Notes: generated by a model not told the origin, from the letters alone. DNA of 64,000 nt from Vicinamibacterales bacterium (GCA_048594975.1 JBMDXQ010000104.1:36552-100551), one strand, 5' to 3'. Counted from the first letter of the stretch, positions 1,705 to 12,658 are shown. Numbers and translations are program-made.

Positions 1705-2156
1705 GATGCCCTCCTGCGCAGCGGCGAACCGGTGTGCGATCGTGAGCCGACGAGGAAGGCCGACGTGCAGGACAGGCCATGAGGATGCCGCCGCAGATGA
1801 GTTGGTCCACCATTGTCGCCCTGGAATGTGCGCCGCGGGGGCTGCGATGATAAGTGGCCGAGCTTGTGCGATCAAGCTCTTTCTCGATCCCATACCTCAG
1901 CCATGCGTGCGTTCGTATGTACGGGTACCCCATGAACGCGCCGGAGCCGGCAATCGAACACGCACGTGTGCGCGGCGCGTCGCGAGGCGCTCGTTCGTTC
2001 CGCCACGGTGAGACGCTCGGGAGTAGGAAACGCGCGTCCGCGTCGAAGGCAGCCCGTGCGTTTGGTGTATAAGAGTGGCGGACTCCCGCTGGCGTCTGCG
2101 AAAGCGCCCGGCCATCCCGTCGAACCATCGTCCTCGAGAGAAAAGGAGAAGCGCTC

Positions 2157-2291
2157 ATGGGCTACTTCGAACAGAACCCCCTGGCTCTCATCGTGGCGGT
2201 CATTCTCACCGTCGAGGGATGGAATGCGTTCAAGGCCATGGTGAAGAAGACCCTGCTCGACCGGCGCGTTCGCGACCAACGCCTGCCCTGA
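2157..2291 (+). CDS. Small single-pass membrane protein (44 aa), holin-like topology
   Basis: Below the ORF-track length cutoff. ATG at 2157 is preceded by AAGGAG about 8 nt upstream. Translation is MGYFEQNPLALIVAVILTVEGWNAFKAMVKKTLLDRRVRDQRLP. It has one hydrophobic helix followed by a Lys/Arg-rich tail, and mostly G/C-ending codons. It lies 86 nt upstream of the amidase gene on the same strand. Confidence 0.45.
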   Translation: MGYFEQNPLALIVAVILTVEGWNAFKAMVKKTLLDRRVRDQRLP

Positions 2292-2377
2292 TTCCGGCCA
2301 GGGTCTGCAACTGCAGGGGCCACGGCGCGCCCGCCGTGCCGTGGTGAGTTTTCTCCGTCCCATGAGCTGGAGGTGTG

Positions 2378-3229
2378 ATGGCCAGGTGTCCCTTCGCAGC
2401 GTTCGAAGAGATCACGGGGCCGGTCGGCGCGTTCTCGGCCGGCCCGTTCAGGATCGTTCACCACACGACCGAGGGCAGCTCGTACGCCGGCGCGAAGGCC
2501 GCCTACCGGCGGGCCCGCTCGGATCCGCATTTCACTGTCGCCGGCGACCAGGTCTTCCAGCACATCGACACCAGCATGTCCGCGCGGGCGCTGCGCAACT
2601 CGCCCGGCGGCGTGGAGACGAACCGGCACTCCGCCATTCAGATCGAGGTGGTGGGTTTCGCGGGGCGTGCCAAGGATGTGGCGACGCTCACGACGGTCGC
2701 GCGGCTGTGCCGCTGGATCGAGTCCGAACACGGCGTGCCGCAGCATTGGCCGAACGGCCGTCCGAGGACGGCGGTCAACGGTCGCGATCCCGGTGGGCAC
2801 AATCGGTCGGCGGAGGCCTGGAGGCGGGAGGGCGGGCATTACGGGCACAGCCAGGTGCCCGAGAACACTCACTGGGATCCGGCCTACAGCGGCGCCGAGC
2901 TCGCGATCGTGACGCCGCAAGCGGTGTTCGACGCGCACGAGGAACTGGCGGCTCCGGCGGAGCTCGCGGAGGCCCCCGGGATCGAGACCGCGCCGCTGTC
3001 CACGGAGGCGGAAGCCATCGTGCACCGGGTGCTCAGCGAGTTGGCCGTTGCAGCGCCGACCGCCGTGTCCGGCACCGTGTCGCGCGTGACGGTACGCGTC
3101 AGGGCGGGGGACGTTGACGTGCGGGTGACGGTGGAAGGTGAGCCGCGCGCCGACGCCGATACCGAGTCGCCGCGCCGATCGACGGCGCCGAGGTCGCGCC
3201 GGCCTCGCGCCCGTACGCGGCATCGGTGA
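2378..3229 (+). CDS. N-acetylmuramoyl-L-alanine amidase domain protein (Amidase_2/PGRP type), no signal peptide
   Basis: ORF track gives 2375..3229. ATG at 2378 has GGAGG (2369-2373) 4 nt upstream. The N-terminal ~170 aa resemble the Amidase_2/PGRP fold (RIVHHTTEG, IQIEVVG, GHYGHSQVPENTHWDP). No signal peptide or TM helix. A ~110 aa Ala/Glu/Val-rich C-terminal extension ends in an Arg-rich tail. Confidence 0.8.
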   Translation: MARCPFAAFEEITGPVGAFSAGPFRIVHHTTEGSSYAGAKAAYRRARSDPHFTVAGDQVFQHIDTSMSARALRNSPGGVETNRHSAIQIEVVGFAGRAKDVATLTTVARLCRWIESEHGVPQHWPNGRPRTAVNGRDPGGHNRSAEAWRREGGHYGHSQVPENTHWDPAYSGAELAIVTPQAVFDAHEELAAPAELAEAPGIETAPLSTEAEAIVHRVLSELAVAAPTAVSGTVSRVTVRVRAGDVDVRVTVEGEPRADADTESPRRSTAPRSRRPRARTRHR

Positions 3230-3239
3230 GTGGCCTGAA

Positions 3240-4613
3240 TCAGACAGCCGGCTTTCTCGCTCTTACCACCAGTCCCGCGACCGGCGCACCTGCCTCCATG
3301 CGGAGCTCGGCATGCCGGATTCGCGGCTCCAGTCCGGCTGCCACGAGCAGGCACTCCACGTAGGTCTGCGCATGGCTGTAGCGGCCATGCGCTTCCAGCC
3401 GGTAATCGACGCCGCCGTCTGCGGCCTCTTCAACGGTGAAGACGATGAGGCCGTCCGGCCGCAGCGCGCGCCCCGCCGCATCGATCGCTGTTTCGAGCGC
3501 TCCGAAGTACACGAGCGTATCGGCAGAGACGATCAGGTGGAACGCGTCCCGGTTGTTCTGCAGGTACTCCGTCAGCTCGGACTTGATCAGCACGTCGTAG
3601 ACGCCCTTCTCACGCGCCTGGGCCAGCATGCCCGCCGAGAGATCGACGCCGGTCAATCGCCGCGCGTACGGCGCCACGAGCGGGCCGCAGAGTCCCGTTC
3701 CGCACCCGGCATCGAGCACGTCGAGAGACCTGGCTGCCCGCAGGCCGGCGTCCTCCAGCATGGCCGCCACCAGCGCCGGCGCGCGGTACGAGAGCCGCTG
3801 CAGCTTCGACTCGAAGCTTGAAGCGAAGCCGTCGAAAGTGCGCTCGACGAACGCGTCGGAGGCGCGTGGCGGAACGCCCCGCCCGGTGCACGCCGCCAGC
3901 ATGTGCCGGGCGATCGGATCTTCGGGGTCGTCGGCGAGCCACTCGTGGAGGATGGCAACTGCCGCATCGATTTCGCCCAGGGTGGCATGCGCGATCGCCA
4001 GCAGCCGCCGCGCCTCCGGGTGCTTCGGGCGCAGGGTGATCGCCTTGCAGTAGCATGCGGCCGCTTCCTTGGTGCGGTTCAGCGCGTTCAGGAGGACGCC
4101 GAGGTTGGTGTAGGCGTCGACGTGCGACGGGTTCAGCTCGATCGCCTTCCTGTACGCCGCCTCGGCCGCAGCGGGATTTCCGGCTGCCCGCAACACCACG
4201 CCCAGGTTGCTGAAGGCGTTCGCGTGCGCGGGATCGATCGCGATCGCGCGGCGGTAGGCGGCGGCCGCCTCCTCGATCCGTCCGAGGGCCTGGTAGACGA
4301 TGCCGAGATTGCTGTGCCAGTCGGCGACCCCGGGTTCGAGCGCGACGCTTCGCTCGATCAGCCGCAGCGCCTCGCCGTCCTGGTGCAGCTGGTGGGCGAG
4401 GACGCCGGAGAAGTGCAGTGCCTGCGGGTGGTCCGGCTGGACCTCCAGCACGCGGCGGTACAGCTCCTGCGCGGGCGTGAACCGCTCGCCCCTCTGCAGG
4501 AGGATCGCGAACTGCACCGCTTCGTCCAGGGTCAGCTCCGTGGTCAGATCTTGTTTCTTGCAGGAATGACCTCCGAAGAGGACGTCGTCTCGATCGTCGG
4601 CGCCAGATGACAT
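3240..4613 (-). CDS. TPR-repeat protein fused to a class I SAM-dependent methyltransferase
   Basis: This is the C-terminal 457 aa of track ORF 3240..5141. The upstream part of that ORF overlaps hcp in another frame and is Arg-rich nonsense. ATG at 4613 (MSSGADDRDD) lies 30 nt after the hcp stop. Repeated TPR signatures are present (AYRRAIAIDPAHANAFSNLG, AYRKAIELNPSHVDAYTNLG). SAM motif I is VLDAGCGTGL. Confidence 0.8.
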   Translation of the reverse strand: MSSGADDRDDVLFGGHSCKKQDLTTELTLDEAVQFAILLQRGERFTPAQELYRRVLEVQPDHPQALHFSGVLAHQLHQDGEALRLIERSVALEPGVADWHSNLGIVYQALGRIEEAAAAYRRAIAIDPAHANAFSNLGVVLRAAGNPAAAEAAYRKAIELNPSHVDAYTNLGVLLNALNRTKEAAACYCKAITLRPKHPEARRLLAIAHATLGEIDAAVAILHEWLADDPEDPIARHMLAACTGRGVPPRASDAFVERTFDGFASSFESKLQRLSYRAPALVAAMLEDAGLRAARSLDVLDAGCGTGLCGPLVAPYARRLTGVDLSAGMLAQAREKGVYDVLIKSELTEYLQNNRDAFHLIVSADTLVYFGALETAIDAAGRALRPDGLIVFTVEEAADGGVDYRLEAHGRYSHAQTYVECLLVAAGLEPRIRHAELRMEAGAPVAGLVVRARKPAV

Positions 4614-4642
4614 TCCTGCAATAAACAAGATCTGACCCCGCG

Positions 4643-5122
4643 TCAGAACGTCTTGTTCGTCTTGATGTCGTACTTGAAGAACACGCCGGCGTCGAGCGAA
4701 CCATCCGCCTTCACCGGTTTGTACTCGAGCTCCACCTTCGAGAAGTTCAGCGTCACGCTCTCGGACCCGGGCTGGCCGCTGCTCGTCCCATCGACGACCG
4801 AGCTGACCAGCACGTCCTCCATTTTGATGGTGAGGTAATCCTGCTGAGTTCCGCCCGCCTTCCGGACCGTGATGCGCGCCGACGGCAGGTGCTTGCCGGT
4901 TGCACAGGCCTTCATCAGTCCCGCCGACGCCTTGTCGATGGCGTGCACGAACGAGAAATCCTGGAACGTCGCCTTGCCGGCGACGCCGCCACCGCTCACG
5001 GCGGCGCTTCCGCTGTTGGCGACGCCCCATGAGAACGAGAGCACCTCGATCTCGCCCTTGTGCTTGGCGTCGAGCGATTCCCCTTTGATGTCTCCGATCT
5101 TCGCGAAGATGTCGACTGCCAT
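4643..5122 (-). CDS. hcp: Type VI secretion tube protein Hcp (TssD), Hcp1 family
   Basis: 159 aa. MAVDIFAKIGDIKGESLDAKHKGEIEVLSFSWG ... ITVRKAGG ... VTLNFSKVELEYKP aligns along its whole length with my memory of Hcp1 (MAVDMFIKIGDVKGES..H.EEIDVLAWSWG ... LTIRKAGG). Confidence 0.9.
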   Translation of the reverse strand: MAVDIFAKIGDIKGESLDAKHKGEIEVLSFSWGVANSGSAAVSGGGVAGKATFQDFSFVHAIDKASAGLMKACATGKHLPSARITVRKAGGTQQDYLTIKMEDVLVSSVVDGTSSGQPGSESVTLNFSKVELEYKPVKADGSLDAGVFFKYDIKTNKTF

Positions 5123-5278
5123 TCGAGCACTCCTGATTCATCGACGAACGGCGACGGATCTACCCGGCGTGACCCTTCCGGATCGACCTCCGCTCGCGGG
5201 GTTGGTGGCTTGAAGAAGCCGCCTTTCCGAGCGCATGCCCTGCGATGCGAGGCAGCGTGGCCGCGGATTGGCCTCGCG

Positions 5279-6703
5279 TCACAGCGTCTTGAGGAACTCG
5301 ATGAGCGCCTGCTTCTCGGCGGCGCTCAGCTCGACGCCGTACAGGTGACCGCCGTTGCCGTTGCCGGGCCGGGCTGTGTCGTACATCGCGCCCATCTGCG
5401 CCGCGATCTCCCCGGAAGAGACGAAGCCCACGTGCTGCGGGTCGTAGACGTCGTACCCGCGGTAGAAACGCGGCGTTCGGTTCGCTGCCCGCTCGAGCAG
5501 GTCGTGCAGTGTCGGCACTGACCCGTTGTGCAGGAATGGGGCGCGCAGCCAGATGCCGTCGAGCGGCACGGCCACGTAGCCGTTCGTCTTGCGGAACGCA
5601 CCGAAGTCCCACGGGTAGCGGTCGGCAAAAGCGTTGTAGGCATTTGCGGCCGCTGCGGTCCACATATCCAGGCGATGCCGATCAGTGCCGACCTCGTCCA
5701 CGGGTATGACCGAGCCGGTCCGCGATCCGCCCGGGGCATGGCACTGCGCGCACTGCCCTTCGAAGACGGGCCGGCCGCGCGCCGCCAGGGCACGGTCGAT
5801 CTCGAACGGGTAGGGGGCCGGCGGCACGCCGAGGAGCCATTTTTCGACGCGTTCCAGGTTGGAGAGCGCGATCGACTTGCGGCTCGCGCCGTCGCCGATG
5901 GCGCTGCTCAGGACCGACTCGCGCAGCGACGTGGTCAGGCCATCCCAGTGGAGCGACATGCCCGCGCGCGCCTTCATGTTCCAGATCGGCACCATGTCCG
6001 AGTTGCCGACCGTCGTGTCCACCGGCTGTTTGAGGATGCGGAACTTCACCGGGTTGAACGGGTCGATGCGTCCCGGGCCCCAGTCTGGGTTGCGGTCCAT
6101 CCAGGCGTACTCGCGCTTCTGCCGTAGCAGTGCCTTCCGCGTCCCCGGGATGAACAGGTAGCGGTACCGCATCCGCTCGGCCCACGAGAGGCGCGTGATC
6201 CTGGAGATGGCCGGCAGGAGCGTGTCCCCGTCGAACCGCGGATCCTCGGCTGCGGCCTGCAGGAACCGAACGTAGGCCTGCGGGTTGATCAGGTGCCCGG
6301 GCCCGGCGGCGACGAGCCGCCTGGCCCCCCCTGGCTCGGTCCTGAACGCTGCCGTGTGGCAGAACGCGCAGTTGATCGCTACGCGCGGCCCCCCGGGGAG
6401 GTTCGCCTTCGCGAAGCCGACCGGCAGCTCGCGCCCCGGCTCCCAGACGAACCCGAAGGCGCTGTAGCCGCCGGGCCGCGGCAGCTTGTCGGCGAACACC
6501 CGCGGGAGCACCTGCCAGATCCAGTAGGGGATGCCCTCTTCGGACTCGATGCCGACCGAACCGTACTTGAACTGCTCCTCGGGATCCTCGAACACCGGCG
6601 CCCCGGACGATCCGCGGCCGCGGGCGGCGCAGGCGACCAGCAGCACGCACCACAGCGCGGCGATCAGGCGGACGGCGGCGGAAGGCGAGCTCGTCATCGG
6701 CAT
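5279..6703 (-). CDS. Secreted di-haem c-type cytochrome, CCP/MauG-like C-terminal half (paralogue 1)
   Basis: Signal peptide MPMTSSPSAAVRLIAALWCVLLVACAA. Two CxxCH motifs (CAFCH, CAQCH). IPYWIW motif. LRAPFLHNGSVPTL follows haem 2. C-terminus is ALIEFLKTL. Full-length similarity to 6711..8126. Confidence 0.8.
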   Translation of the reverse strand: MPMTSSPSAAVRLIAALWCVLLVACAARGRGSSGAPVFEDPEEQFKYGSVGIESEEGIPYWIWQVLPRVFADKLPRPGGYSAFGFVWEPGRELPVGFAKANLPGGPRVAINCAFCHTAAFRTEPGGARRLVAAGPGHLINPQAYVRFLQAAAEDPRFDGDTLLPAISRITRLSWAERMRYRYLFIPGTRKALLRQKREYAWMDRNPDWGPGRIDPFNPVKFRILKQPVDTTVGNSDMVPIWNMKARAGMSLHWDGLTTSLRESVLSSAIGDGASRKSIALSNLERVEKWLLGVPPAPYPFEIDRALAARGRPVFEGQCAQCHAPGGSRTGSVIPVDEVGTDRHRLDMWTAAAANAYNAFADRYPWDFGAFRKTNGYVAVPLDGIWLRAPFLHNGSVPTLHDLLERAANRTPRFYRGYDVYDPQHVGFVSSGEIAAQMGAMYDTARPGNGNGGHLYGVELSAAEKQALIEFLKTL

Positions 6704-6710
6704 CCGCGCG

Positions 6711-8126
6711 TCACAGGGTCTTGAGGTACTCGAGGAGCGCGAGGCGCTGCGCGGCCGGCAGCGTGCTGCCGTAGACGTGGCCGGCGTTGCCGTTGCCCTT
6801 CACCGTCGTGTCGAAGGGGACGCCTTCGCCCTCGGCCTGCGGTCCGCTCGAGACGAACCCGACGTTCTCCCAGTCATAGACGTCGTAACCGCGGAAGAAG
6901 GTGCGCGGGCGTTCCTCGGGGAAGAGCAGCGCGCGCAGCGTCGGCACGGACCCGTTGTGCAGGTACGGCGCGCGCAGCCACAGGCCGTCGAGCGGCATGT
7001 TGGCGTAGCCGTTCGTCTTGCGGAACCGCTTGAACTGCCACGGCCGGCCGCGGCCGATGGTGTTCATGCGCGGCGCGAGCTCCGCCGTGAACGAGCGCAG
7101 CCGCTCCGAGTCGGTGCCGACCTCGGCGATCTCGGTGACCTGGCCGACGCTTGGCCCGCCGACCGCGTGGCAGCCCGCGCAGGCCTGGTCGTAGACGCGC
7201 CGCCCCTCCTCGGCCTTCGAGCGGTCCACACGGGCGGCGGGGTACTGCGGCGGCTTCAAGTCGAGGATCCACTCCTCGATGCGCGCCATGGACGCGAGGT
7301 CGAGCGAGTCGGCCGTAGCCCCGGCGCCGATCGCTGCGCTCTTGTTCCGCTCCTCGACCGAGTCGTTGTTGCCGTCCCAGTGCAGCCACATGCCGCGGCG
7401 CATCCGCTGGTTCCAGAGCGACGGCAGGTCGACGGTGCCGACGGTGTCGTCCATCGGCAGCCTGAGGAACACCTTGTAGGGATTGAACGTGTCCACCCGG
7501 CCGACGCCCTGCGGCGGGCGCGTGTCGAACCACGAGTTCTCCCGCGCGCGGTCCAGGATGCCGTCGCGCGTCGCGCCGACCACGAACAGCCGGTAGAGGA
7601 GGCGGTTGAACCACGAGATGCGCGCGTTCTCCTTGCGGATCGCCTCCATGATGGTGCCGTAGTTGAAGCGCGGATCGCGGGCGGCCGCGGTGAGGAAATT
7701 GGCGTACCCCTGCAGGTCCATCTGGTTGGCAGGCATGCCCGAGATGATCTGCCGCGCGCTGGTCGGCGTCTCGCGCAACGTGCCCACGTGGCACGTGGCG
7801 CAGTTCAGGCCGACGCGCGCGAATCGGCCCGGCTTGTAAGACGTGCCGATCGGCCGTCCGTGCGGCTTCCCGTCAGAGACGAACCCGATTCGCTCGTACC
7901 CGGTGCCGGGCCGTTTCGGCAACTTGTCTTCGAAGATCGTCGGCAGCACCCGCCAGATCCAGTAGGGCAGCCCGACCCGCTCCTCGGTGCCGATCGACCC
8001 GTAGCGGAAGTGATCGTCGATGTTCGGAAAGGACGCGGCGTCCTTCTCGGGCGCCTGCGCATGCAGCGAGGCAGCCAGCAGCAGCGACAGCGCCGCGAGA
8101 AGCAACAGGGGTGTGCGTCGGGGCAT
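6711..8126 (-). CDS. Secreted di-haem c-type cytochrome, CCP/MauG-like (paralogue 2)
   Basis: Signal peptide MPRRTPLLLLAALSLLLAASLHAQA. Two CxxCH motifs (CATCH, CAGCH). LPYWIW motif. LRAPYLHNGSVPTL present. C-terminus is ALLEYLKTL. Its stop lies 7 nt before the next gene's start. Confidence 0.8.
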   Translation of the reverse strand: MPRRTPLLLLAALSLLLAASLHAQAPEKDAASFPNIDDHFRYGSIGTEERVGLPYWIWRVLPTIFEDKLPKRPGTGYERIGFVSDGKPHGRPIGTSYKPGRFARVGLNCATCHVGTLRETPTSARQIISGMPANQMDLQGYANFLTAAARDPRFNYGTIMEAIRKENARISWFNRLLYRLFVVGATRDGILDRARENSWFDTRPPQGVGRVDTFNPYKVFLRLPMDDTVGTVDLPSLWNQRMRRGMWLHWDGNNDSVEERNKSAAIGAGATADSLDLASMARIEEWILDLKPPQYPAARVDRSKAEEGRRVYDQACAGCHAVGGPSVGQVTEIAEVGTDSERLRSFTAELAPRMNTIGRGRPWQFKRFRKTNGYANMPLDGLWLRAPYLHNGSVPTLRALLFPEERPRTFFRGYDVYDWENVGFVSSGPQAEGEGVPFDTTVKGNGNAGHVYGSTLPAAQRLALLEYLKTL

Positions 8127-8139
8127 CGGAAGCGCGGCC

Positions 8140-9594
8140 TCAGACGAACGGCGGCGGATCGAACACGGTCATGATCTGCCGTATCATCTCTTCTCGCGAG
8201 GAGAAGCGCGAGGGCTCGTAGCAGCCGAGCGGGTTCTCGACCGCGTTCACCAGGCACTTGTTGCAGTAGGTGCACGGCCGCTCCGGCCGCGCCGCGCCGC
8301 CCGCGAAGGTCTTTACCAGGTCGTTGTTGGCGATGAGCGGGCGCGCGATGCTCACCGCGTCGCACAGCCCGTCGGCCAGCGCCTGTTCGATGACGGTGGC
8401 GGTCTGGAACCCGCCCGTGCACAGCACCGGCACCTTCACCGCCTGCTTGATCCGGTGCGCGTCCGGCAGGTTCATGCCCTCGATGCCCTTGAAGTCGCCT
8501 CGCGCCCGCTCCCAGCGCCGCTGGAAGAGCGGCCCGGTCAGCCGTCCGCGGAAGAACAGGTAGTTGCGGAAGGTCAGCATGCCGCTCGCGACGAGCGTGT
8601 CGTAGGTCTTGCGCAGTTCGTCGAGCGGCAGGTCGCCCGCCGGGTTCTTCGGGTGCGGGAAATAGCTGCCGGTGGAGACGTGGATGGCGTCCACACCGGC
8701 CTCTTCCAGCCACCGGCACACCTGGATCGAGTCCTCCAGCGTGTTCCCCTTCCCCTCGTCATCGTCCAGCGCGTCGTTGTAGTCGATGGCGCTGATCTTC
8801 ATCTGCAGGTGGAAGTCGCGGCCGACCTCCTGGCGGATGGCCCGGACGATGTCGAGCAGGAAGCGCGCGCGGTTCTCGAGGCTGTCGCCGTATTCGTCCT
8901 TGCGGTCGTTGATGCCGGAGCTGAGAAACTGGGTGATGAGGTAGCCGTTGGCCCCGTGCAGTTCCACGCCGTCGACGCCCGCCTCGCGCGCGCGGCGTGC
9001 GCCCTGGCCGAAGGCCGCCGCCACCTCGCGAATCTGCGCGAGGGTCATGCGCTCGCACTCGAAGCCGTGCAGCGGATCGCGCTTGTCGGTCGAGCTCAGA
9101 CCCTTGGCGAACTCGATTCCAGGCAGGTCGCGCTGCCGCCCGCCGTGACTGAGCTGGATGAGGTACTTGCAGTCGCTCTCGCCGTGCACCTGCCTGGCCA
9201 GTTCGCGCCAGAACGGGATCCGCTGATCGGTGTCGATCGTCGCGTAGTTCGGCATGATCCGGCCGCGAATCGCCACAGGCACGAACGAGGAGATGATCGC
9301 GCCGACGCCGCCGCGGGCAAACTTCAGCTCCCAATTGATGCGCGTCTGCGTGCCGGAGCCGTCGTAGTTGTCGAACCGCCCGGAGACGTTCGACCGGAAC
9401 ACGCGGTTCTTCACCGTCAGGTTCCGGAACGCGAGCGGTGCAAAGAGGTGAGGGTAGAGTGTGCCGCCGGGCGCTGGCGAGGCCGATCCGCCGGGCGTCG
9501 CGCGCGCGATCGCTGGCGTGGCCGACGAGGCGGCCGGGCGTGCCAGCGCTACCGCCACGCCCACGACCTCGAGGAGACGTCGCCGGGAAATCAT
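8140..9594 (-). CDS. Old Yellow Enzyme-family FMN oxidoreductase with twin-arginine signal and C-terminal 4-Cys (putative 4Fe-4S) motif
   Basis: Track ORF is 8140..9618. The internal ATG at 9594 has GGAGG 6 nt upstream and gives MISRRRLLEVVGVAVALARPAASSA, a Tat-type signal. OYE signatures are HGANGYLITQFLS and ARPLIANNDL. The protein ends with PCTYCNKCLVNAVENPLGC (C-x2-C-x2-C-x10-C). No NAD(P)-binding C-terminal domain. Confidence 0.85.
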   Translation of the reverse strand: MISRRRLLEVVGVAVALARPAASSATPAIARATPGGSASPAPGGTLYPHLFAPLAFRNLTVKNRVFRSNVSGRFDNYDGSGTQTRINWELKFARGGVGAIISSFVPVAIRGRIMPNYATIDTDQRIPFWRELARQVHGESDCKYLIQLSHGGRQRDLPGIEFAKGLSSTDKRDPLHGFECERMTLAQIREVAAAFGQGARRAREAGVDGVELHGANGYLITQFLSSGINDRKDEYGDSLENRARFLLDIVRAIRQEVGRDFHLQMKISAIDYNDALDDDEGKGNTLEDSIQVCRWLEEAGVDAIHVSTGSYFPHPKNPAGDLPLDELRKTYDTLVASGMLTFRNYLFFRGRLTGPLFQRRWERARGDFKGIEGMNLPDAHRIKQAVKVPVLCTGGFQTATVIEQALADGLCDAVSIARPLIANNDLVKTFAGGAARPERPCTYCNKCLVNAVENPLGCYEPSRFSSREEMIRQIMTVFDPPPFV

Positions 9595-9618
9595 CGAATC
9601 CTCCTGCCGCTCGGGCAC

Positions 9619-11565
9619 TCAGAACGTCTTCAGGAACTCGATCAGGGCACGCTTGTCCTCGTCCGGCAGATCGGTGCCAAACAGGTGGCCGCGGTCGAGG
9701 ATGAAGTCCGGCGCCTGGTTGCGCTGTACCAGGCCGTTGAAGAGCTTCTTGTCCGAGAGCAGGTTCAGCACCACCCGGTTCTGCGCGATGCGCGGGACCT
9801 CGCGTGGATCGACGCGGGCGATCAGGTCGACCGGCGTGCCCGCCGGGATCGTCAGCGGCCGATCGCGTCCCGGGATGCGCAGCACGGTGTCGATCGACGT
9901 GACGATGATCGACTGCACGCCCAGCCGGCGCTCCGGCCACAGGAGTTTCTCGGTCGCGTCGTAGAAGGCGAGCATGCGGCCGCGGACCGACGGATCCTTG
10001 ATGTAGGTACCGAGCGCGTTGTTGTGGAGGTAGGGCGCGGTCGCCCAGATGGAGACGAGCGTCGGGGTGCGGTAGTAACCCCTTCCGCCCCCCTTCAGCT
10101 CGAACTCGATCGGGTTCTTCGGGTCACGCGGGTTGTACAGGTTCCGGAGCTTGCCGATCGGCTTCTGCTGCTTGTAGGTGCGGGACGAGAACTGCGCCCA
10201 GACCTGGCCCTCGATGGCGTTGGTCGCCATCGCCCGCGCGATGTTCGTGCCCAGCATGTCTACCGGGTAGCGACGATCGTCGGACAGGAAGTTGTTCTCG
10301 AGGAAATCGGGGGCGAGCACGGCCTCGCGGTACCAGGCGCCCGTCTTCTGCGCATCGGCGGCGATCTCCGCCGGCGGCTGCTTGCTCGAGTGGCAGCGCG
10401 CACATTTGTCGGCGAACGCCAGCTTGCCACGCCGCAGCGTGTCCGCCTCGGCGGTCTGGTACACGGATCCTCCCGGCGCGTCCTTGAGGTACATCGGCCG
10501 GATCGTCTTCAGGAACGCCTCGGCGTCGGCCATGCGCGCCTCGGTGGCGCGCCACTCCTCGCAGGTCTTGCGCGCGTGCTCCAGCTCGAAGGTCTTCTGC
10601 GGCTGGCGCCCCATGACCGGGTCGTGCAGCGTGAGCCAGTAATCCGAGCACATGCCGATGTTCACGTAGACGCGCAGCGACGCGCCGGCGACCCCGATCG
10701 AGTCGGCGCCGTCCTTCAGGATGTGGTGCACCGGCACCGTCTTGCCGTCGGCCATCACCTCGAGCTGCGTCGGCCGGTACGCGAGGTTGAAGATGGAATT
10801 GATCGCGTTCGGGTTGTTGATGTGGTCGGTGGCGAACCGCGACGTGTCGGACGTGCCGGCCGGCTGCCGGTTGCCCACGTGCCAGCGGAAGTCGGTCGCC
10901 GGCATGCGCAGGTTGAACAGCCGCCCCTCCTCCCAGTACTGGTTGCCGATGGCGCCCGCCAGGTTGGCCCAGGCCGCCGCCTCCGGGTTCTCCGGCGGAT
11001 TCAGAGGGTTGAACCCGATGTGGCAGAAGCCGCACGCCATGCCGATCAGGTACGGCGGCTCGGTCGAGCCCGGGTGCTTGAAGTACTCCTCCGCGGTCGT
11101 CCACTTCGCCTGGTCGAAGCGGGGATTCGGGAACTTCCGCAGGCCGACGATGCCCGACGGCTCGCCGGGGATGCCGGGTACCGTCGGCTGCTCGCACTGG
11201 TCCATCCACAATCCGTACTTGTCCGGAGCGGTCGCCGCGCGGCAGCCCGGCTGCGTGATGGCGCCGAGCGTGACGAACCGCCGGCCGTGCAGCCGCGAAT
11301 CGACGTAGGCGAGCAGGTTGACGTTGCCCTCGGTGAGCTGCGCCATCCTGACCCAGAACTTCTCATTGCCCCCCGTCCAGAAGTACCAGGTGTCGCGCCC
11401 GGCGCGCTGCTGGTCGGTGAGGTAGGCGTAGCCATACGGGTCCTTGGTGTCGTTTCCGGACCGCGCCGTCTGCGCGCTGCCGCGCACGTCGAGCAGCAGC
11501 ACCAGCAGGATCGCCAGCATCCAGATCGTTCCGGCCGTGACGGCGATGAGCCCTTGGTTCTTCAT
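9619..11565 (-). CDS. Secreted di-haem c-type cytochrome, larger paralogue (648 aa)
   Basis: N-terminal hydrophobic signal/anchor (IAVTAGTIWMLAILLVLLL). Two CxxCH motifs (CGFCH, CARCH). ATAPYLHNNALGT present. C-terminus is ALIEFLKTF. First gene of the four-gene operon. Confidence 0.8.
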   Translation of the reverse strand: MKNQGLIAVTAGTIWMLAILLVLLLDVRGSAQTARSGNDTKDPYGYAYLTDQQRAGRDTWYFWTGGNEKFWVRMAQLTEGNVNLLAYVDSRLHGRRFVTLGAITQPGCRAATAPDKYGLWMDQCEQPTVPGIPGEPSGIVGLRKFPNPRFDQAKWTTAEEYFKHPGSTEPPYLIGMACGFCHIGFNPLNPPENPEAAAWANLAGAIGNQYWEEGRLFNLRMPATDFRWHVGNRQPAGTSDTSRFATDHINNPNAINSIFNLAYRPTQLEVMADGKTVPVHHILKDGADSIGVAGASLRVYVNIGMCSDYWLTLHDPVMGRQPQKTFELEHARKTCEEWRATEARMADAEAFLKTIRPMYLKDAPGGSVYQTAEADTLRRGKLAFADKCARCHSSKQPPAEIAADAQKTGAWYREAVLAPDFLENNFLSDDRRYPVDMLGTNIARAMATNAIEGQVWAQFSSRTYKQQKPIGKLRNLYNPRDPKNPIEFELKGGGRGYYRTPTLVSIWATAPYLHNNALGTYIKDPSVRGRMLAFYDATEKLLWPERRLGVQSIIVTSIDTVLRIPGRDRPLTIPAGTPVDLIARVDPREVPRIAQNRVVLNLLSDKKLFNGLVQRNQAPDFILDRGHLFGTDLPDEDKRALIEFLKTF

Positions 11566-12196
11566 GTGGTCCTCGACAGGTCGGGTTAAACGGCGCGCCG
11601 ACGCACGCGATTTCCGCAGGCCGGTCGCGACGCCGGCGGATCACGGATCGCAGGCGTGATCCGAACGCCCGGCGGATCGCGGGCCGGCCGGGGCGGCAGA
11701 CGTAAAACCGTGCCCTGGACGTGGGCTGTCGGCTTCCTGACACCGCGGAGAGCGTGCCTGGTAGCGACAACGACATTTCGTCCGCGACCGAACGTCAGGA
11801 GCTTTGGGAGTGCGTGCCGCCAGGGATCGTGCTCGATGGCGCCCGACGGACCGCGGCGGGAGCCGCCGGTCGAGGGCGTACCACGAGCGGGAGACCACCC
11901 GTGCGCCGTATGCGCGTCATCCTCGGGCCCCCGGCACGGGTTGTCAATAGGAAATCTTGTAAAGGCGGCGGTTGGACACCGGACGCGAGCTGGCACCCTC
12001 GCGGAAACGGGCGCTGGCGCTCACGCGAACGCGGGGGTGGGTACGGCCCGGGAAGGGGTCACCGCACAGGCCGCTGGCTGCGCGCGCCCTCGAACTGCAC
12101 CGACCTGCCGAGGTCTAGTAATGGGTCCATCGATCGAGCTGACTGAAGATCCTGCCACGCCAGGTGTTCGCGTAGATCGAGAGCACGTGGTGCCAG

Positions 12197-12658
12197 CTAC
12201 GTGTCTGTCCACTGCTGCTCCCACTCGTACGGAGTTCCGCAGAAGTCGATCGCCGGCAGGCCGCGCGCGATCATCCGTTCAACGACGCGAGGCGCAGGAA
12301 CGTGGCGGGGCTCAGGAGCCGATGGCGCGCGGCACATCTGGGTCTTCAGATAGTAGTACGTGCCCCGTTGGATGCATCCCAGGTTGTGCGCGATCGGCTC
12401 GTCGTCGAGCATCAGCAGTTGCAGGTGAACGTGACCGGCCCCCGCGGCTGCGCGTCCCTGCTCGCGGTAGAGCGCCGCCTCGTACGGCACCAGCGCTGAT
12501 CGCCGCGGCGTTTGCAGCCACGGCTCGATTATTTTGCCCAACGCCGCTGCGCCTGCGTTACGTTCCGCCCAGGACGGACCGGAAGCCGCTGACATGAGCA
12601 CCCGCCGAGGTCCGCGAGGGAAGCGAAGGCGCGCCCGCGGCCGATTCCTCATCCCCAC
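12197..12658 (-). pseudogene. Remnant of a CelD/BcsL-like (Acetyltransf_6, GNAT-related) gene, C-terminal part only
   Basis: Only about the last 100 aa resemble the family (HLQLLMLDDEPIAHNLGCIQRGTYYYLKT ... GLPAIDFCGTPYEWEQQW). After YYYLKT a different frame reads more family-like (HRLLSPATFLRLASL), which suggests internal frameshifts. The N-terminal ~250 aa expected for this family are absent because the kinase region starts immediately upstream. Confidence 0.4.

What the first reader, a model, noticed from the sequence alone, without database searches (positions are those of the whole stretch)
5279..11760. Operon of three di-haem cytochromes c around a Tat-signal OYE-like Fe-S flavoprotein: candidate periplasmic ene-reductase/dehydrogenase wired to c-type haems
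Seen in sequence:
- Four minus-strand genes are separated by only 24, 13 and 7 nt.
- Three encode signal-bearing proteins, each with exactly two CxxCH motifs (CGFCH/CARCH, CATCH/CAGCH, CAFCH/CAQCH).
- Each has a peroxidase-like motif after haem 2 (LRAPFLHNGSVPTL, LRAPYLHNGSVPTL, ATAPYLHNNALGT).
- Each has a near-identical C-terminus, L(I/L)E(F/Y)LKT(L/F).
- The fourth gene is an OYE-family TIM-barrel flavoprotein (HGANGYLITQFLS, ARPLIANNDL).
- Its SD-supported start gives MISRRRLLEVVGVAVALARPAASSA.
- It ends with C-x2-C-x2-C-x10-C, with no nucleotide-binding domain after it.

Established knowledge:
- S-R-R-x-(F/L)-L followed by a hydrophobic stretch is the twin-arginine export signal used for cofactor-loaded proteins.
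- A 4-Cys cluster directly after the barrel is the [4Fe-4S] site of the trimethylamine dehydrogenase / 2,4-dienoyl-CoA reductase branch of OYEs. There it passes electrons to C-terminal ADP/NADPH domains.
- AP(Y/F)(F/L)H(D/N)GS..TL typifies di-haem CCP/MauG-type proteins.

Inference:
- With the NAD(P)H domains missing and a periplasmic location, the cytochromes are the logical redox partners.
- I am not aware of a characterised Tat-exported OYE coupled to cytochromes c.
- The substrate could be an activated alkene, a quinone, a nitro compound or an amine; it is unknown.
Basis: partly seen in the sequence, partly recalled or inferred. Interest (0 to 1): 0.72.

Follow-up and report, generated by a model that had tools for sequence, protein, structure and literature searches.

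The report
Exported flavoenzyme among RoxA-like haem oxygenases
A soil acidobacterium has a conserved four-gene operon in which an iron-sulfur "old yellow enzyme" carrying an export signal sits among three RoxA-like two-haem enzymes, and related genomes suggest a lipid/alkene-oxidation pathway rather than a simple flavoprotein-cytochrome electron wire.

Summary
The four minus-strand genes are real and the cluster is conserved.

The three "cytochromes" are not generic electron carriers or CCP/MauG proteins. They belong to the RoxA-like di-haem family, whose characterised members are O2-dependent oxygenases of rubber or oleate.

The flavoprotein is a short Fe-S old yellow enzyme (OYE). It keeps the classical His/Asn/Tyr ene-reductase site, has an invariant C-x2-C-x2-C-x10-C motif, and has no NAD(P)H domain in any of 120 relatives. 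Its twin-arginine signal is real and conserved, but only in one derived clade of about 38 sequences.

Most orthologues (66-78% identical) have no signal at all, yet many sit in the same operons with exported RoxA-like genes. Others sit next to cytoplasmic alpha-dioxygenase homologues and a catalase-related haemoprotein. The gene linkage therefore predates export and cannot rest on direct flavoprotein-haem contact.

Best reading: an oxylipin-type pathway in which haem oxygenases oxidise an unsaturated lipid or isoprenoid and the OYE reduces the resulting enone/enal. In this lineage that step has moved to the periplasm. The electron donor of the exported form is unknown, so haem-to-cluster wiring remains possible for this clade only.

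Verdict: new variant of known kinds; moderately interesting.

The parts
9619..11565 (-). cytA: divergent RoxA-like di-haem c protein, 648 aa, with a Sec-type signal and CGFCH178/CARCH388
   Evidence: - ORF and motifs.
- PF21419 scores 26.9 bits against a cutoff of 26.7. NF040606 gives E 1.6e-12, below its cutoff.
- A family profile's best PDB hit is RoxA, E 5e-4, at the WATAPY.HN motif and the GH...LIE.LKT motif.
- The fold was not resolved: model pLDDT 59 and no Foldseek hit.
9599..9604 (-). Shine-Dalgarno GGAGGA, 4 nt upstream of the OYE ATG
   Evidence: - Read directly from the sequence.
- Purine-rich SD-like elements sit before the ATG in all 7 clade loci.
9520..9594 (-). Twin-arginine (Tat) signal peptide of the OYE: MISRRRLLEVVGVAVALARPAASSA
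   Evidence: - S-R-R-R-L-L motif, a 9-12 residue hydrophobic stretch, a basic residue in the c-region, and A-S-S-A.
- Conserved in about 38 relatives that form one clade.
- Export itself was not tested.
8140..9594 (-). Short Fe-S old yellow enzyme (FMN TIM barrel plus a C-terminal 4-Cys tail, no NAD(P)H/FAD domains), 484 aa
   Evidence: - PF00724 E 2.6e-59.
- PDB: YqjM-type OYEs E 1e-37 and E. coli FadH E 4e-37.
- 120 homologues, almost all 415-492 aa; one outlier of 562 aa.
8941..8958 (-). Active-site motif H213-G-A-N216-G-Y218 (carbonyl-binding His/Asn pair and proton-donor Tyr)
   Evidence: - Aligns with H164/H167/Y169 of the YqjM-type OYE 3gr7.
- H213, N216 and Y218 are invariant in 27 relatives.
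8221..8274 (-). C441-x2-C444-x2-C447-x10-C458: putative [4Fe-4S] site
   Evidence: - Aligns with the CxxCxxxC cluster region of FadH 1ps9.
- Present in 120 of 120 homologues and invariant in A1.
- The cluster itself was not demonstrated.
6711..8126 (-). cytC: RoxA-like di-haem c protein, 471 aa, with a signal peptide and CATCH109/CAGCH316
   Evidence: - PF21419 E 1e-16. NF040606 scores 182.5 bits against a cutoff of 150.
- AF2 model pLDDT 78. The only significant PDB fold hit is RoxA 4b2n, E 2.8e-9, TM 0.54.
5279..6703 (-). cytD: RoxA-like di-haem c protein, 474 aa, with a lipoprotein-like signal (LVAC) and CAFCH112/CAQCH318; tandem paralogue of cytC
   Evidence: - PF21419 E 3.8e-15. NF040606 scores 177.7 bits against a cutoff of 150.
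- 46% identical to cytC over the full length.

Best explanation
The operon encodes part of an oxygen-dependent pathway for an unsaturated lipid or isoprenoid, comparable to an oxylipin pathway. It is not a dedicated flavoprotein-cytochrome electron chain.

**Proposed mechanism**
- The three exported RoxA-like di-haem proteins are the oxygenating enzymes. They would act as dioxygenase, hydroperoxide-converting or C=C-cleaving enzymes, as RoxA and the P. aeruginosa PA2077/PA2078 pair do.
- The Fe-S OYE is the ene-reductase. It would saturate the alpha,beta-unsaturated ketone or aldehyde these enzymes generate, as OPR3 does after lipoxygenase/allene oxide synthase in plants.
- In most relatives this reduction is cytoplasmic. 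In the window's clade the enzyme has gained a Tat signal, so it is exported folded with FMN and the cluster and works beside the oxygenases.

**What is shown**
- Family assignments.
- Conservation of the catalytic residues, the Cys motif and the Tat motif.
- Gene linkage across phyla.
- Absence of a signal in most orthologues.

**What is inferred**
- The substrate class.
- The order of reactions.
- Actual export.
- That electrons enter through the [4Fe-4S] cluster in the periplasm. The donor is unknown.
For: 1. cytC and cytD exceed the NCBIfam NF040606 cutoff. All three proteins hit Pfam RoxA-like_Cyt-c, and none hits CCP_MauG.
2. The cytC model matches only RoxA in the PDB: E 2.8e-9, probability 1.00.
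3. RoxA's haem-2 distal His (the GH before ...LIEYIKTL) and its inter-haem Trp (WDG) line up with invariant residues here.
4. PMC4496055 states that the RoxA branch comprises RoxA plus PA2077 (oleate 10S-dioxygenase) and PA2078 (7,10-diol synthase). Those two are adjacent periplasmic paralogues of 43% identity. Here cytC and cytD are adjacent paralogues of 46% identity.
5. The OYE keeps H213/N216/Y218, and these are invariant.
6. Context of 86 loci:
   - 52 have RoxA-like genes.
   - 31 have an Animal-haem-peroxidase gene (PF03098, E 6e-110). This gene is a full-length homologue of the plant fatty-acid alpha-dioxygenases 4kvj/4hhr (E about 1e-118 and 1e-113) and has no signal peptide.
   - 12 have both.
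   - Junctions are often 3-10 nt or overlapping.
7. Other recurrent neighbours:
   - A catalase-related mini-haemoprotein: profile against 3e4w E 1e-10, against coral allene oxide synthase E 5e-4.
   - A Tle1-like phospholipase-fold protein and a GMC oxidoreductase.
8. Signal-less OYE orthologues occupy the same operons as exported RoxA-like proteins.
9. The Tat-bearing OYEs form one nested clade. Six of 8 such loci have the full four-gene set; L081 shows only OYE plus one RoxA-like gene. (The eighth, L002 = P0005, also has the full set.)
10. Only 6 mature-protein positions distinguish the Tat clade, which implies the same chemistry in both compartments. It also argues against a CoA-ester substrate.
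Against: - No substrate or product is known for any member of this OYE clade or of these RoxA-like subfamilies. The "lipid" assignment rests on homology of neighbours and on two characterised distant relatives.
- RoxA's essential Phe317 appears to be Ala in cytC (weak alignment), so the chemistry may differ.
- cytA's fold could not be confirmed.
- Primary products of alpha-dioxygenase and RoxA are not conjugated enones, so an extra step is needed to create an OYE substrate.
- An exported ene-reductase has no NAD(P)H available, and the cluster encodes no obvious donor. No small cytochrome, quinol dehydrogenase or ferredoxin lies in the operon, and there is no other CxxCH ORF in the 64 kb window.
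- 15 of 86 loci show neither haem partner, though several of these are short contigs.
Confidence: 0.5

Rival explanations
1. The exported OYE and the di-haem proteins form a periplasmic redox module. Electrons pass between the bis-His haem 2 of a RoxA-like protein and the OYE [4Fe-4S]/FMN, so that the flavoenzyme reduces or oxidises its substrate without NAD(P)H.
For: - Conserved Tat signal.
- Invariant 4-Cys motif and no nucleotide-binding domain.
- No NAD(P)H in the periplasm (established knowledge).
- Tight operon with 7-24 nt gaps.
- Six of 8 Tat-clade loci keep all three di-haem genes around the OYE.
- RoxA haem potentials quoted as -65 and -130 to -160 mV (PMC4496055) are in a range that could exchange electrons with a flavin/Fe-S centre (inference).
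- This model is compatible with the di-haem proteins also being enzymes.
Against: - The same linkage exists with signal-less OYEs that cannot touch exported haem proteins.
- No Tat-clade-specific substitutions occur around the cluster motif.
- No link to the quinol pool or to a small carrier is encoded nearby.
- Characterised RoxA-branch enzymes need no external reductant (PMC4496055; own knowledge for RoxA).
Confidence: 0.2
2. A stress-defence module. The di-haem proteins act as peroxidases on H2O2 or lipid hydroperoxides in the envelope. The OYE detoxifies reactive electrophiles (enals, quinones) formed by lipid peroxidation.
For: - NCBIfam names NF040606 "di-heme-cytochrome C peroxidase".
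- The neighbouring catalase-related protein resembles 3e4w, a haemoprotein that I recall has hydroperoxide peroxidase activity (function from memory).
- YqjM-type OYEs are the best PDB relatives and are known to be induced by oxidative stress (own knowledge).
Against: - Three distinct, anciently diverged RoxA-like paralogues, together with alpha-dioxygenase, phospholipase-like and GMC genes, look like a pathway rather than a scavenger set.
- The family name is an annotation, not a tested activity.
- There are no regulators of oxidative stress in the cluster.
Confidence: 0.15
3. The OYE is the reductase component of the haem enzymes. NAD(P)H reduces FMN directly, and the cluster hands single electrons to the partner haem enzyme (alpha-dioxygenase-like or RoxA-like) for activation or for a peroxidase cycle.
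For: - The short Fe-S OYE Nox oxidises NADH (bioRxiv 10.1101/2023.07.10.548207; PMC5157978).
- The OYE gene is translationally coupled to alpha-dioxygenase-like genes in about 18 loci.
- The cluster sits where FadH relays electrons.
Against: - It cannot work for cytoplasmic OYE with exported RoxA-like partners.
- It cannot work with NAD(P)H in the periplasm.
- The intact His/Asn/Tyr substrate site argues for a substrate-reducing enzyme.
Confidence: 0.1
4. Start-codon artefact: the real start lies downstream and the protein is cytoplasmic like its relatives.
For: - In-frame GTG codons lie at residues 11 and 13, with a GAGG 8 nt before the second.
- A few members inside the clade are called without a signal (P0039, P0040, P0052; L003 has no room for one).
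Against: - Amino-acid conservation starts exactly at the ATG in 7 of 7 loci, whose upstream DNA is unrelated. Each has an SD-like element.
- The M-x-[ST]-RR-x-[LV]-[LI] motif is more conserved than the linker that follows it.
Confidence: 0.03

Closest known systems
Rubber oxygenase RoxA (PDB 4b2n) and RoxB
   Same: - Exported monomer-size di-haem c protein with two CxxCH motifs about 200 residues apart.
- Shares the WATAPY(F/L)HNGS motif, the GH (haem-2 distal His) and the ...LIEYLKTL C-terminus.
- RoxA is the only significant fold match for cytC.
   Different: - 470-650 aa here against 650-680 aa.
- 17% identity.
- Scores are far below the RoxA/RoxB/RoxC equivalog cutoffs: 58-77 bits against 900-1000.
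- RoxA's Phe317 is apparently not conserved.
- No evidence for rubber as the substrate.
P. aeruginosa oleate-diol synthase PA2077 (10S-dioxygenase) / PA2078 (7,10-diol synthase), the 'FadCcp' subfamily (PMC4496055)
   Same: - Adjacent periplasmic di-haem paralogues of the RoxA branch (43% identity there, 46% here).
- They act one after another on an unsaturated fatty acid.
- This is the best functional analogy for cytC/cytD.
   Different: - The sequences could not be compared directly here.
- Haem spacing is 235-245 residues there against 206-210 here.
- No OYE is reported in that system.
Short OYEs with a C-terminal CxxCxxCxnC motif (SSN clusters 7, 10, 14, 18, 20; Nox of Rhodococcus erythropolis MI2) (bioRxiv 10.1101/2023.07.10.548207; PMC5157978)
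   Same: Single TIM-barrel OYE with a 4-Cys tail that aligns with the 2-enoate reductase cluster ligands, and no FAD/NAD(P)H domains. The role of the cluster is described as unknown.
   Different: - No Tat signal and no linkage to haem oxygenases is reported.
- Nox is described as an NADH-oxidising disulfide reductase.
- Whether the window's protein falls into one of those SSN clusters was not tested.
Three-domain Fe-S flavoenzymes: 2,4-dienoyl-CoA reductase FadH (1ps9), trimethylamine dehydrogenase, 2-enoate reductases, BaiCD, long BilR
   Same: The N-terminal FMN barrel and the position of the 4-Cys motif.
   Different: - The C-terminal FAD and NAD(P)H domains are absent.
- The active site is His/Asn/Tyr, not the FadH or TMADH type.
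- All NCBIfam scores are far below the cutoffs: for example BaiCD 197 bits against 825.
Plant oxylipin enzymes: alpha-dioxygenase (4hhr, 4kvj) and the OYE 12-oxophytodienoate reductase OPR3
   Same: - Same logic: a haem or iron dioxygenase acts on a fatty acid and is followed by an OYE that reduces an enone.
- Alpha-dioxygenase homologues are physically linked to this OYE family in 31 loci.
- OPR3 is among the PDB hits of the OYE.
   Different: - The window itself has no alpha-dioxygenase gene.
- OPR3 has no Fe-S cluster and uses NADPH.
- The bacterial pathway products are unknown.
Periplasmic flavocytochrome c C=C reductases (Shewanella fumarate reductase Fcc3, urocanate reductase, acrylate reductase ArdAB; bioRxiv 10.1101/2024.02.11.579808)
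   Same: They reduce activated C=C bonds in the periplasm with electrons supplied through c-type haems.
   Different: - The flavoprotein there has the FAD_binding_2/fumarate-reductase fold, not the OYE fold.
- The haems are small multihaem carrier domains, not RoxA-like enzymes.
Bacterial di-haem cytochrome c peroxidases / MauG (PF03150)
   Same: Distant common ancestry of the di-haem core. The AP(Y/F)xH(D/N)G motif is shared.
   Different: - No Pfam CCP_MauG hit.
- Foldseek matches to MauG are only E 0.6-2.6.
- About twice the size.
- The spacing between the two haem motifs is about 200 residues here, against about 150 in CCP/MauG (the latter figure from memory).

Membership tests
Old yellow enzyme family (PF00724) | FMN-binding TIM barrel matching the family profile | tested here: met
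   PF00724 E 2.6e-59, 201.6 bits against a cutoff of 27. 137 PDB OYE chains match at E<=1e-10.
Old yellow enzyme family (PF00724) | His/His or His/Asn pair that binds the activating group, plus a Tyr proton donor | tested here: met
   H213, N216 and Y218 align with H164/H167/Y169 of 3gr7 and are invariant in 27 relatives.
Three-domain Fe-S flavoenzymes (FadH/TMADH/2-enoate reductase) | Four-Cys [4Fe-4S] motif directly after the barrel | tested here: met
   C441/444/447/458 align with the FadH cluster segment. The motif is present in 120 of 120 homologues. Cluster binding was not demonstrated.
Three-domain Fe-S flavoenzymes (FadH/TMADH/2-enoate reductase) | C-terminal FAD and NAD(P)H (or ADP) binding domains | tested here: not met
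   The protein ends 26 residues after the last Cys. There is no Pfam domain beyond the barrel. Homologues are almost all 415-492 aa, with one outlier of 562 aa.
Tat (twin-arginine) exported proteins | N-terminal S/T-R-R-x-F/L-L motif, a moderately hydrophobic h-region, and an A-x-A type cleavage site | tested here: met
   MISRRRLLEVVGVAVALARPAASSA has a basic residue in the c-region. The motif is conserved in about 38 relatives and in 7 of 7 loci, starting at an SD-preceded ATG. No dedicated predictor (TatP/SignalP) was available.
Tat (twin-arginine) exported proteins | Demonstrated Tat-dependent export | not testable with these tools
   Needs a reporter fusion or fractionation.
RoxA-like di-haem proteins (PF21419 / NCBIfam NF040606) | Profile match above the curated cutoff | tested here: met
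   PF21419 scores: cytC 60.7, cytD 55.6, cytA 26.9 bits (cutoff 26.7). NF040606 scores: cytC 182.5 and cytD 177.7 bits (cutoff 150), but cytA only 47.4 bits.
RoxA-like di-haem proteins (PF21419 / NCBIfam NF040606) | Two CxxCH motifs about 200 residues apart, and the C-terminal GH...L(I/L)E(Y/F)(L/I)KT(L/F) carrying the haem-2 distal His | tested here: met
   Haem spacing is 210, 207 and 206 residues. The GH is invariant. These features align with RoxA residues 638-662. H641 is named as a haem ligand in PMC4496055.
RoxA-like di-haem proteins (PF21419 / NCBIfam NF040606) | RoxA fold | tested here: inconclusive
   cytC: Foldseek to 4b2n, E 2.8e-9, TMq 0.54. cytA: the model is too poor (pLDDT 59) and gave no hit. 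cytD was not modelled; it is 46% identical to cytC.
Rubber oxygenases RoxA/RoxB/RoxC (NCBIfam equivalogs) | Score above the equivalog cutoff (900-1000 bits) | tested here: not met
   Best scores are 16-77 bits.
CCP/MauG di-haem peroxidases (PF03150) | Profile match to CCP_MauG | tested here: not met
   No hit at E<=0.01 for any of the three proteins. MauG fold matches are only E 0.6-2.6.
Periplasmic flavocytochrome c enoate/fumarate reductases | FAD_binding_2 (fumarate reductase-type) flavoprotein with a multihaem c domain or subunit | tested here: not met
   The flavoprotein is Oxidored_FMN only. The haem proteins are RoxA-like.

The most novel reading that the evidence does not exclude
The window's clade has turned a cytoplasmic Fe-S OYE into an NAD(P)H-independent periplasmic enzyme. 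It would exchange electrons through its [4Fe-4S] cluster with the second haem of RoxA-like oxygenases, which would be a flavin/Fe-S/haem enzyme system of a type not yet described. More broadly, the family would mark an unrecognised oxylipin-like pathway present in several phyla, and that would finally assign a native substrate to a bacterial OYE.
Probability: 0.2. Interest if true: 0.75.

Novelty: new variant of a known kind. Interest (0 to 1): 0.6.

Why it matters
- **OYE substrates.** The physiological substrates of almost all bacterial OYEs are unknown, and the role of the Fe-S cluster in the short OYEs is stated to be unclear (bioRxiv 10.1101/2023.07.10.548207). Here one such clade is tightly and repeatedly linked to two unrelated kinds of haem oxygenase, RoxA-like and alpha-dioxygenase-like. 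The linkage is seen in Acidobacteriota, Chloroflexota and Acidimicrobiia. This gives a concrete, testable hypothesis about substrate class.
- **Export.** I found no report of a Tat-exported OYE in the searchable library. The window's clade is a natural experiment in moving a cofactor-loaded reductase out of reach of NAD(P)H. Working out its electron donor would show whether the cluster is an electron entry port.
- **RoxA-like family.** This family is very large: 7722 proteins scored E<=1e-10 for cytC alone, among the 8000 candidates scored. It is almost entirely uncharacterised. Knowing what soil Acidobacteria do with three paralogues per operon bears on the turnover of unsaturated lipids or polyisoprenoids in soil.

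Tried and rejected
- **cytA fold.** AF2 on 32 homologues gave pLDDT 59, and Foldseek found nothing significant. hhalign against the cytC profile matched only the last 25 residues. cytA's assignment therefore rests on sequence motifs alone.
- **Apparent fusions.** I first read L012 and L021 as alpha-dioxygenase-OYE fusions because the frame stayed open upstream. Rejected: the upstream ORF stops 6 nt before the OYE start in the same frame.
- **TMADH-type amine dehydrogenase.** Rejected as the leading reading. The active site is the classical His/Asn/Tyr type. The best NCBIfam and PDB relatives are ene-reductases (BaiCD, BilR, NamA, YqjM, FadH), and TMADH is not among the best 60 PDB matches shown.
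- **CoA-ester substrate (FadH-like).** Judged unlikely. The exported and cytoplasmic forms differ at only 6 positions, and there is no CoA in the periplasm.
- **Hitch-hiker export of signal-less OYEs.** No evidence. The adjacent haem proteins have ordinary Sec-type signals or anchors, and a twin-Arg in them is not conserved.
- **CatL identification.** A single-sequence PDB search found nothing. Only the profile search did.
- **P0001 lookup.** The exact-sequence lookup for P0001 found no gene on record.
- **RNA and regulatory scans.** Rfam gave no hit in the window. The sigma-70 promoter scan found nothing, and terminator-like sites were no more frequent than in shuffled sequence, so the operon ends are not defined.
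- **Literature.** A search for old yellow enzyme + twin-arginine + periplasmic returned two papers, both irrelevant.

Full report
**1. What is in the sequence**

The region lies in 66-70% G+C DNA. Its best relatives come from Vicinamibacterales and other Acidobacteriota.

There are four minus-strand genes:
- cytA, 9619-11565, 648 aa
- OYE, 8140-9594, 484 aa
- cytC, 6711-8126, 471 aa
- cytD, 5279-6703, 474 aa

They are separated by 24, 13 and 7 nt. The OYE ATG at 9594 follows GGAGGA by 4 nt. An in-frame GTG abuts the cytA stop, and using it would add 8 residues without removing the signal.

Each haem protein has exactly two CxxCH motifs, an N-terminal signal (cytD has a lipobox-like LVAC), the AP(Y/F)LHN motif after haem 2, and an L(I/L)E(F/Y)LKT(L/F) end. 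The OYE has HGANGY, ARPLIANNDL and C441-x2-C444-x2-C447-x10-C458, with 26 residues after the last Cys. The stated end, 11760, overshoots the cytA start by about 195 nt.

Flanking genes look unrelated:
- a TPR-methyltransferase and two unannotated ORFs downstream
- a GNAT fragment, a Ser/Thr kinase-TPR protein and a sigma-54 activator upstream

There is no Rfam hit in the window. The promoter/terminator scan was not informative.

**2. The haem proteins are RoxA-like enzymes, not carriers or CCP/MauG**

- All three hit Pfam RoxA-like_Cyt-c, and none hits CCP_MauG.
- cytC and cytD exceed the cutoff of NCBIfam NF040606, and cytA does not. All three are far below the RoxA/RoxB/RoxC equivalog cutoffs.
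- By sequence, the only PDB relative is RoxA 4b2n. It shares the motif after haem 2 and the C-terminal GH...ALIEYIKTL.
- An AF2 model of cytC (pLDDT 78) matches RoxA alone: E 2.8e-9, TM 0.54.
- cytC and cytD are 46% identical tandem paralogues.
- cytA is much more divergent. Its model was poor and gave no fold match.

PMC4496055 places RoxA (rubber dioxygenase) on one branch with P. aeruginosa PA2077 (oleate 10S-dioxygenase) and PA2078 (7,10-diol synthase). This branch is separate from the peroxidases and MauG. PA2077 and PA2078 are adjacent periplasmic paralogues of 43% identity that act in sequence on an unsaturated fatty acid. Every characterised member of this branch is therefore an oxygenase of a hydrophobic C=C substrate.

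**3. The flavoprotein**

- It is an OYE: PF00724 E 2.6e-59.
- The best PDB relatives are YqjM-type ene-reductases and E. coli FadH. The FadH alignment runs through the Fe-S cysteines.
- H213/N216/Y218, the classical carbonyl-binding pair and proton donor, and the four Cys are invariant.
- Of the 120 best homologues, all have the Cys motif. Almost all are 415-492 aa, with one outlier of 562 aa. None has an FAD/NAD(P)H domain.
- Such short Fe-S OYEs are already recognised as SSN clusters 7, 10, 14, 18 and 20. There the role of the cluster is called unclear, and the one studied member, Nox, oxidises NADH (bioRxiv 10.1101/2023.07.10.548207; PMC5157978). The architecture itself is therefore not new.

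**4. The Tat signal is real but confined to one clade**

- About 38 distinct relatives start M-[ILF]-[ST]-R-R-x-[LV]-[LI], followed by a hydrophobic stretch and a variable Pro/Ala-rich linker.
- In 7 of 7 loci for which DNA is held, conservation begins exactly at an ATG preceded by an SD-like element, while the upstream DNA is unrelated.
- In a neighbour-joining tree these sequences form one contiguous clade, nested within a much more diverse signal-less family.
- A few members inside the clade lack the signal. L003, for example, has no room for one.
- The signal-less proteins start M-x-x-D-x-I-F-x-P-L at the first barrel strand, with a stop codon a few codons upstream.
- They are 66-78% identical to the window's protein.
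- Only 6 positions of the mature protein separate the two groups, and none is near the cluster motif.

**5. Genomic context**

This is the evidence that changes the interpretation. A scan of one genome per species returned 80 loci. Together with five further loci from exact-sequence lookups (L081-L085; four of these are near-identical copies of one place) and the window itself, 86 were tabulated:

| Context | Loci |
|---|---|
| RoxA-like genes only | 40 |
| Animal-haem-peroxidase gene only | 19 |
| Both | 12 |
| Neither | 15 |

- The full set (big RoxA-like gene, OYE, one or two cytC/cytD-like genes) recurs in about 22 loci, in two arrangements.
- Three more Tat-clade loci show the window's exact order. 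L081 has only OYE plus cytC.
- Signal-less OYEs occupy the same operons.
  - In L036, L048, L062 and L080 the cytA homologue ends 3-40 nt before the OYE start.
  - In L082 a signal-less OYE overlaps the exported RoxA-like gene by 4 nt.
- All RoxA-like neighbours examined have signals or anchors and two CxxCH motifs.
- The peroxidase-family neighbour is a full-length homologue of plant fatty-acid alpha-dioxygenases: 4kvj E 2.6e-118, 4hhr E 1.9e-113. It has no signal peptide and is often translationally coupled to the OYE.
- Other recurrent neighbours are:
  - a catalase-related mini-haemoprotein (profile against 3e4w E 1e-10, against coral allene oxide synthase E 5e-4)
  - a Tle1-like phospholipase-fold protein
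  - a GMC oxidoreductase, which itself alternates between Tat-signal and signal-less forms
- Hosts include Acidobacteriota, Dehalococcoidia/Chloroflexota (three complete chromosomes) and Acidimicrobiia.

**6. Interpretation**

The OYE-haem protein linkage is older and broader than the export signal. It holds when the two proteins are on opposite sides of the membrane. It also holds for a cytoplasmic haem b dioxygenase that is unrelated to the RoxA-like proteins.

The common denominator is oxygenation of an unsaturated lipid-like substrate, not a shared electron wire. I therefore read the operon as an oxylipin-type pathway:
- RoxA-like enzymes oxygenate, rearrange or cleave an unsaturated fatty acid or isoprenoid.
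- An alpha,beta-unsaturated ketone or aldehyde arises, for example by haem-catalysed dehydration of an allylic hydroperoxide (inference).
- The OYE saturates it, as OPR3 does in plants (established knowledge).

In the window's clade the reductase has been relocated to the periplasm by a Tat signal. Because the exported and cytoplasmic forms are nearly identical, the substrate is probably the same free carbonyl compound and not a CoA ester.

The weak point is the electron supply. The periplasm has no NAD(P)H, and neither the operon nor the 64-kb window encodes a carrier. The invariant cluster is the obvious entry port, and haem 2 of a neighbouring RoxA-like protein is a possible donor.

Other rivals are an envelope stress-defence module (0.15), the OYE as reductase component for the haem enzymes (0.1), and a start-codon artefact (0.03).

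**7. Comparison with what is known, and novelty**

- It works like the PA2077/PA2078 system combined with an OPR-type step.
- It is a member of the OYE family and of the RoxA-like family.
- It is not a member of the three-domain Fe-S flavoenzymes (defining domains absent), the RoxA/RoxB equivalogs, CCP/MauG, or the flavocytochrome c enoate reductases such as ArdAB (bioRxiv 10.1101/2024.02.11.579808).
- I found no report of a Tat-exported OYE or of the OYE/RoxA-like/alpha-dioxygenase linkage in the searchable library. That library is incomplete.
- I rate it a new variant of known kinds.

**8. Verdict**

Interest is 0.6. The value lies less in the proposed wire than in a conserved, testable context for an orphan OYE clade and in a natural relocation of a cofactor-loaded reductase.

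Noticed in passing
L025:4735-6744, L030:5426-7378, L034:5297-7333 versus L022, L033, L046, L047: The GMC oxidoreductase encoded next to the large RoxA-like gene also alternates between Tat-signal forms (MRLRRRDLLRSW, MKRRDLLKAAL, GVTRRDVLKIGA) and signal-less forms (MSTP...DADYIVVGSGAGGG). It is a second flavoprotein in the same cluster whose compartment changes between lineages.
   Followed up: partly
L037:11348-12310, L061:11339-12286, L064:9952-10917, L067:11343-12302: A 315-340 aa gene directly after the OYE is a catalase-related mini-haemoprotein. Its profile hits PDB 3e4w/3e4y at E 1e-10 and coral allene oxide synthase 1u5u at E 5e-4. The catalase distal His position appears to be replaced (F-N-Q-A-R).
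   Followed up: partly
L053:799-2625 and 30 other loci: Full-length bacterial homologues of plant fatty-acid alpha-dioxygenase, without signal peptides, are adjacent to and often translationally coupled with the Fe-S OYE in Acidobacteriota, Chloroflexota and Acidimicrobiia.
   Followed up: yes
window 11566-12658: There is about 630 nt of apparently non-coding DNA upstream of cytA. It is followed by a 153-aa minus-strand ORF (12197-12658) that matches only part of a GNAT Acetyltransf_6 domain, probably a gene remnant.
   Followed up: partly
window 3240-5141 (-), 2162-3223 (-), 562-1782 (+): Downstream of cytD, after a 137-nt gap, lies a 633-aa TPR-repeat protein with a C-terminal class I methyltransferase domain. 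Beyond it are two ORFs (353 and 406 aa) with no Pfam or NCBIfam hit. None of these is found in the related loci.
   Followed up: partly
L030:11324-12817 (-), L032:19415-20806, L024:19074-20359: Some loci carry a second, more distant paralogue of the Fe-S OYE (47-52% identity) a few kb away.
   Followed up: no
L003:9734-10100, L087:9456-10879, L088:9471-10889: Several related long-read or metagenome assemblies show cytA- or cytC-like genes split by apparent frameshifts. These are likely assembly errors rather than pseudogenes.
   Followed up: no
window 8480-8662 (OYE residues about 311-372): Relative to YqjM-type OYEs, the barrel carries an insertion of roughly 50 residues between the last strands (FPHPKNPAGDLPLDELRKTYDTL...RWERARGDFKGIEG). 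It is conserved across the family and its role is unknown; it could be a lid or a partner surface.
   Followed up: no
window 7377-7379 and 7332-7334 (cytC W250 and A265): RoxA's inter-haem Trp302 (fWDG) aligns with the invariant HWDG of cytC/cytD. RoxA's essential Phe317 aligns with an invariant Ala. cytA has LKDG at the corresponding place. The alignment in this stretch is weak.
   Followed up: partly
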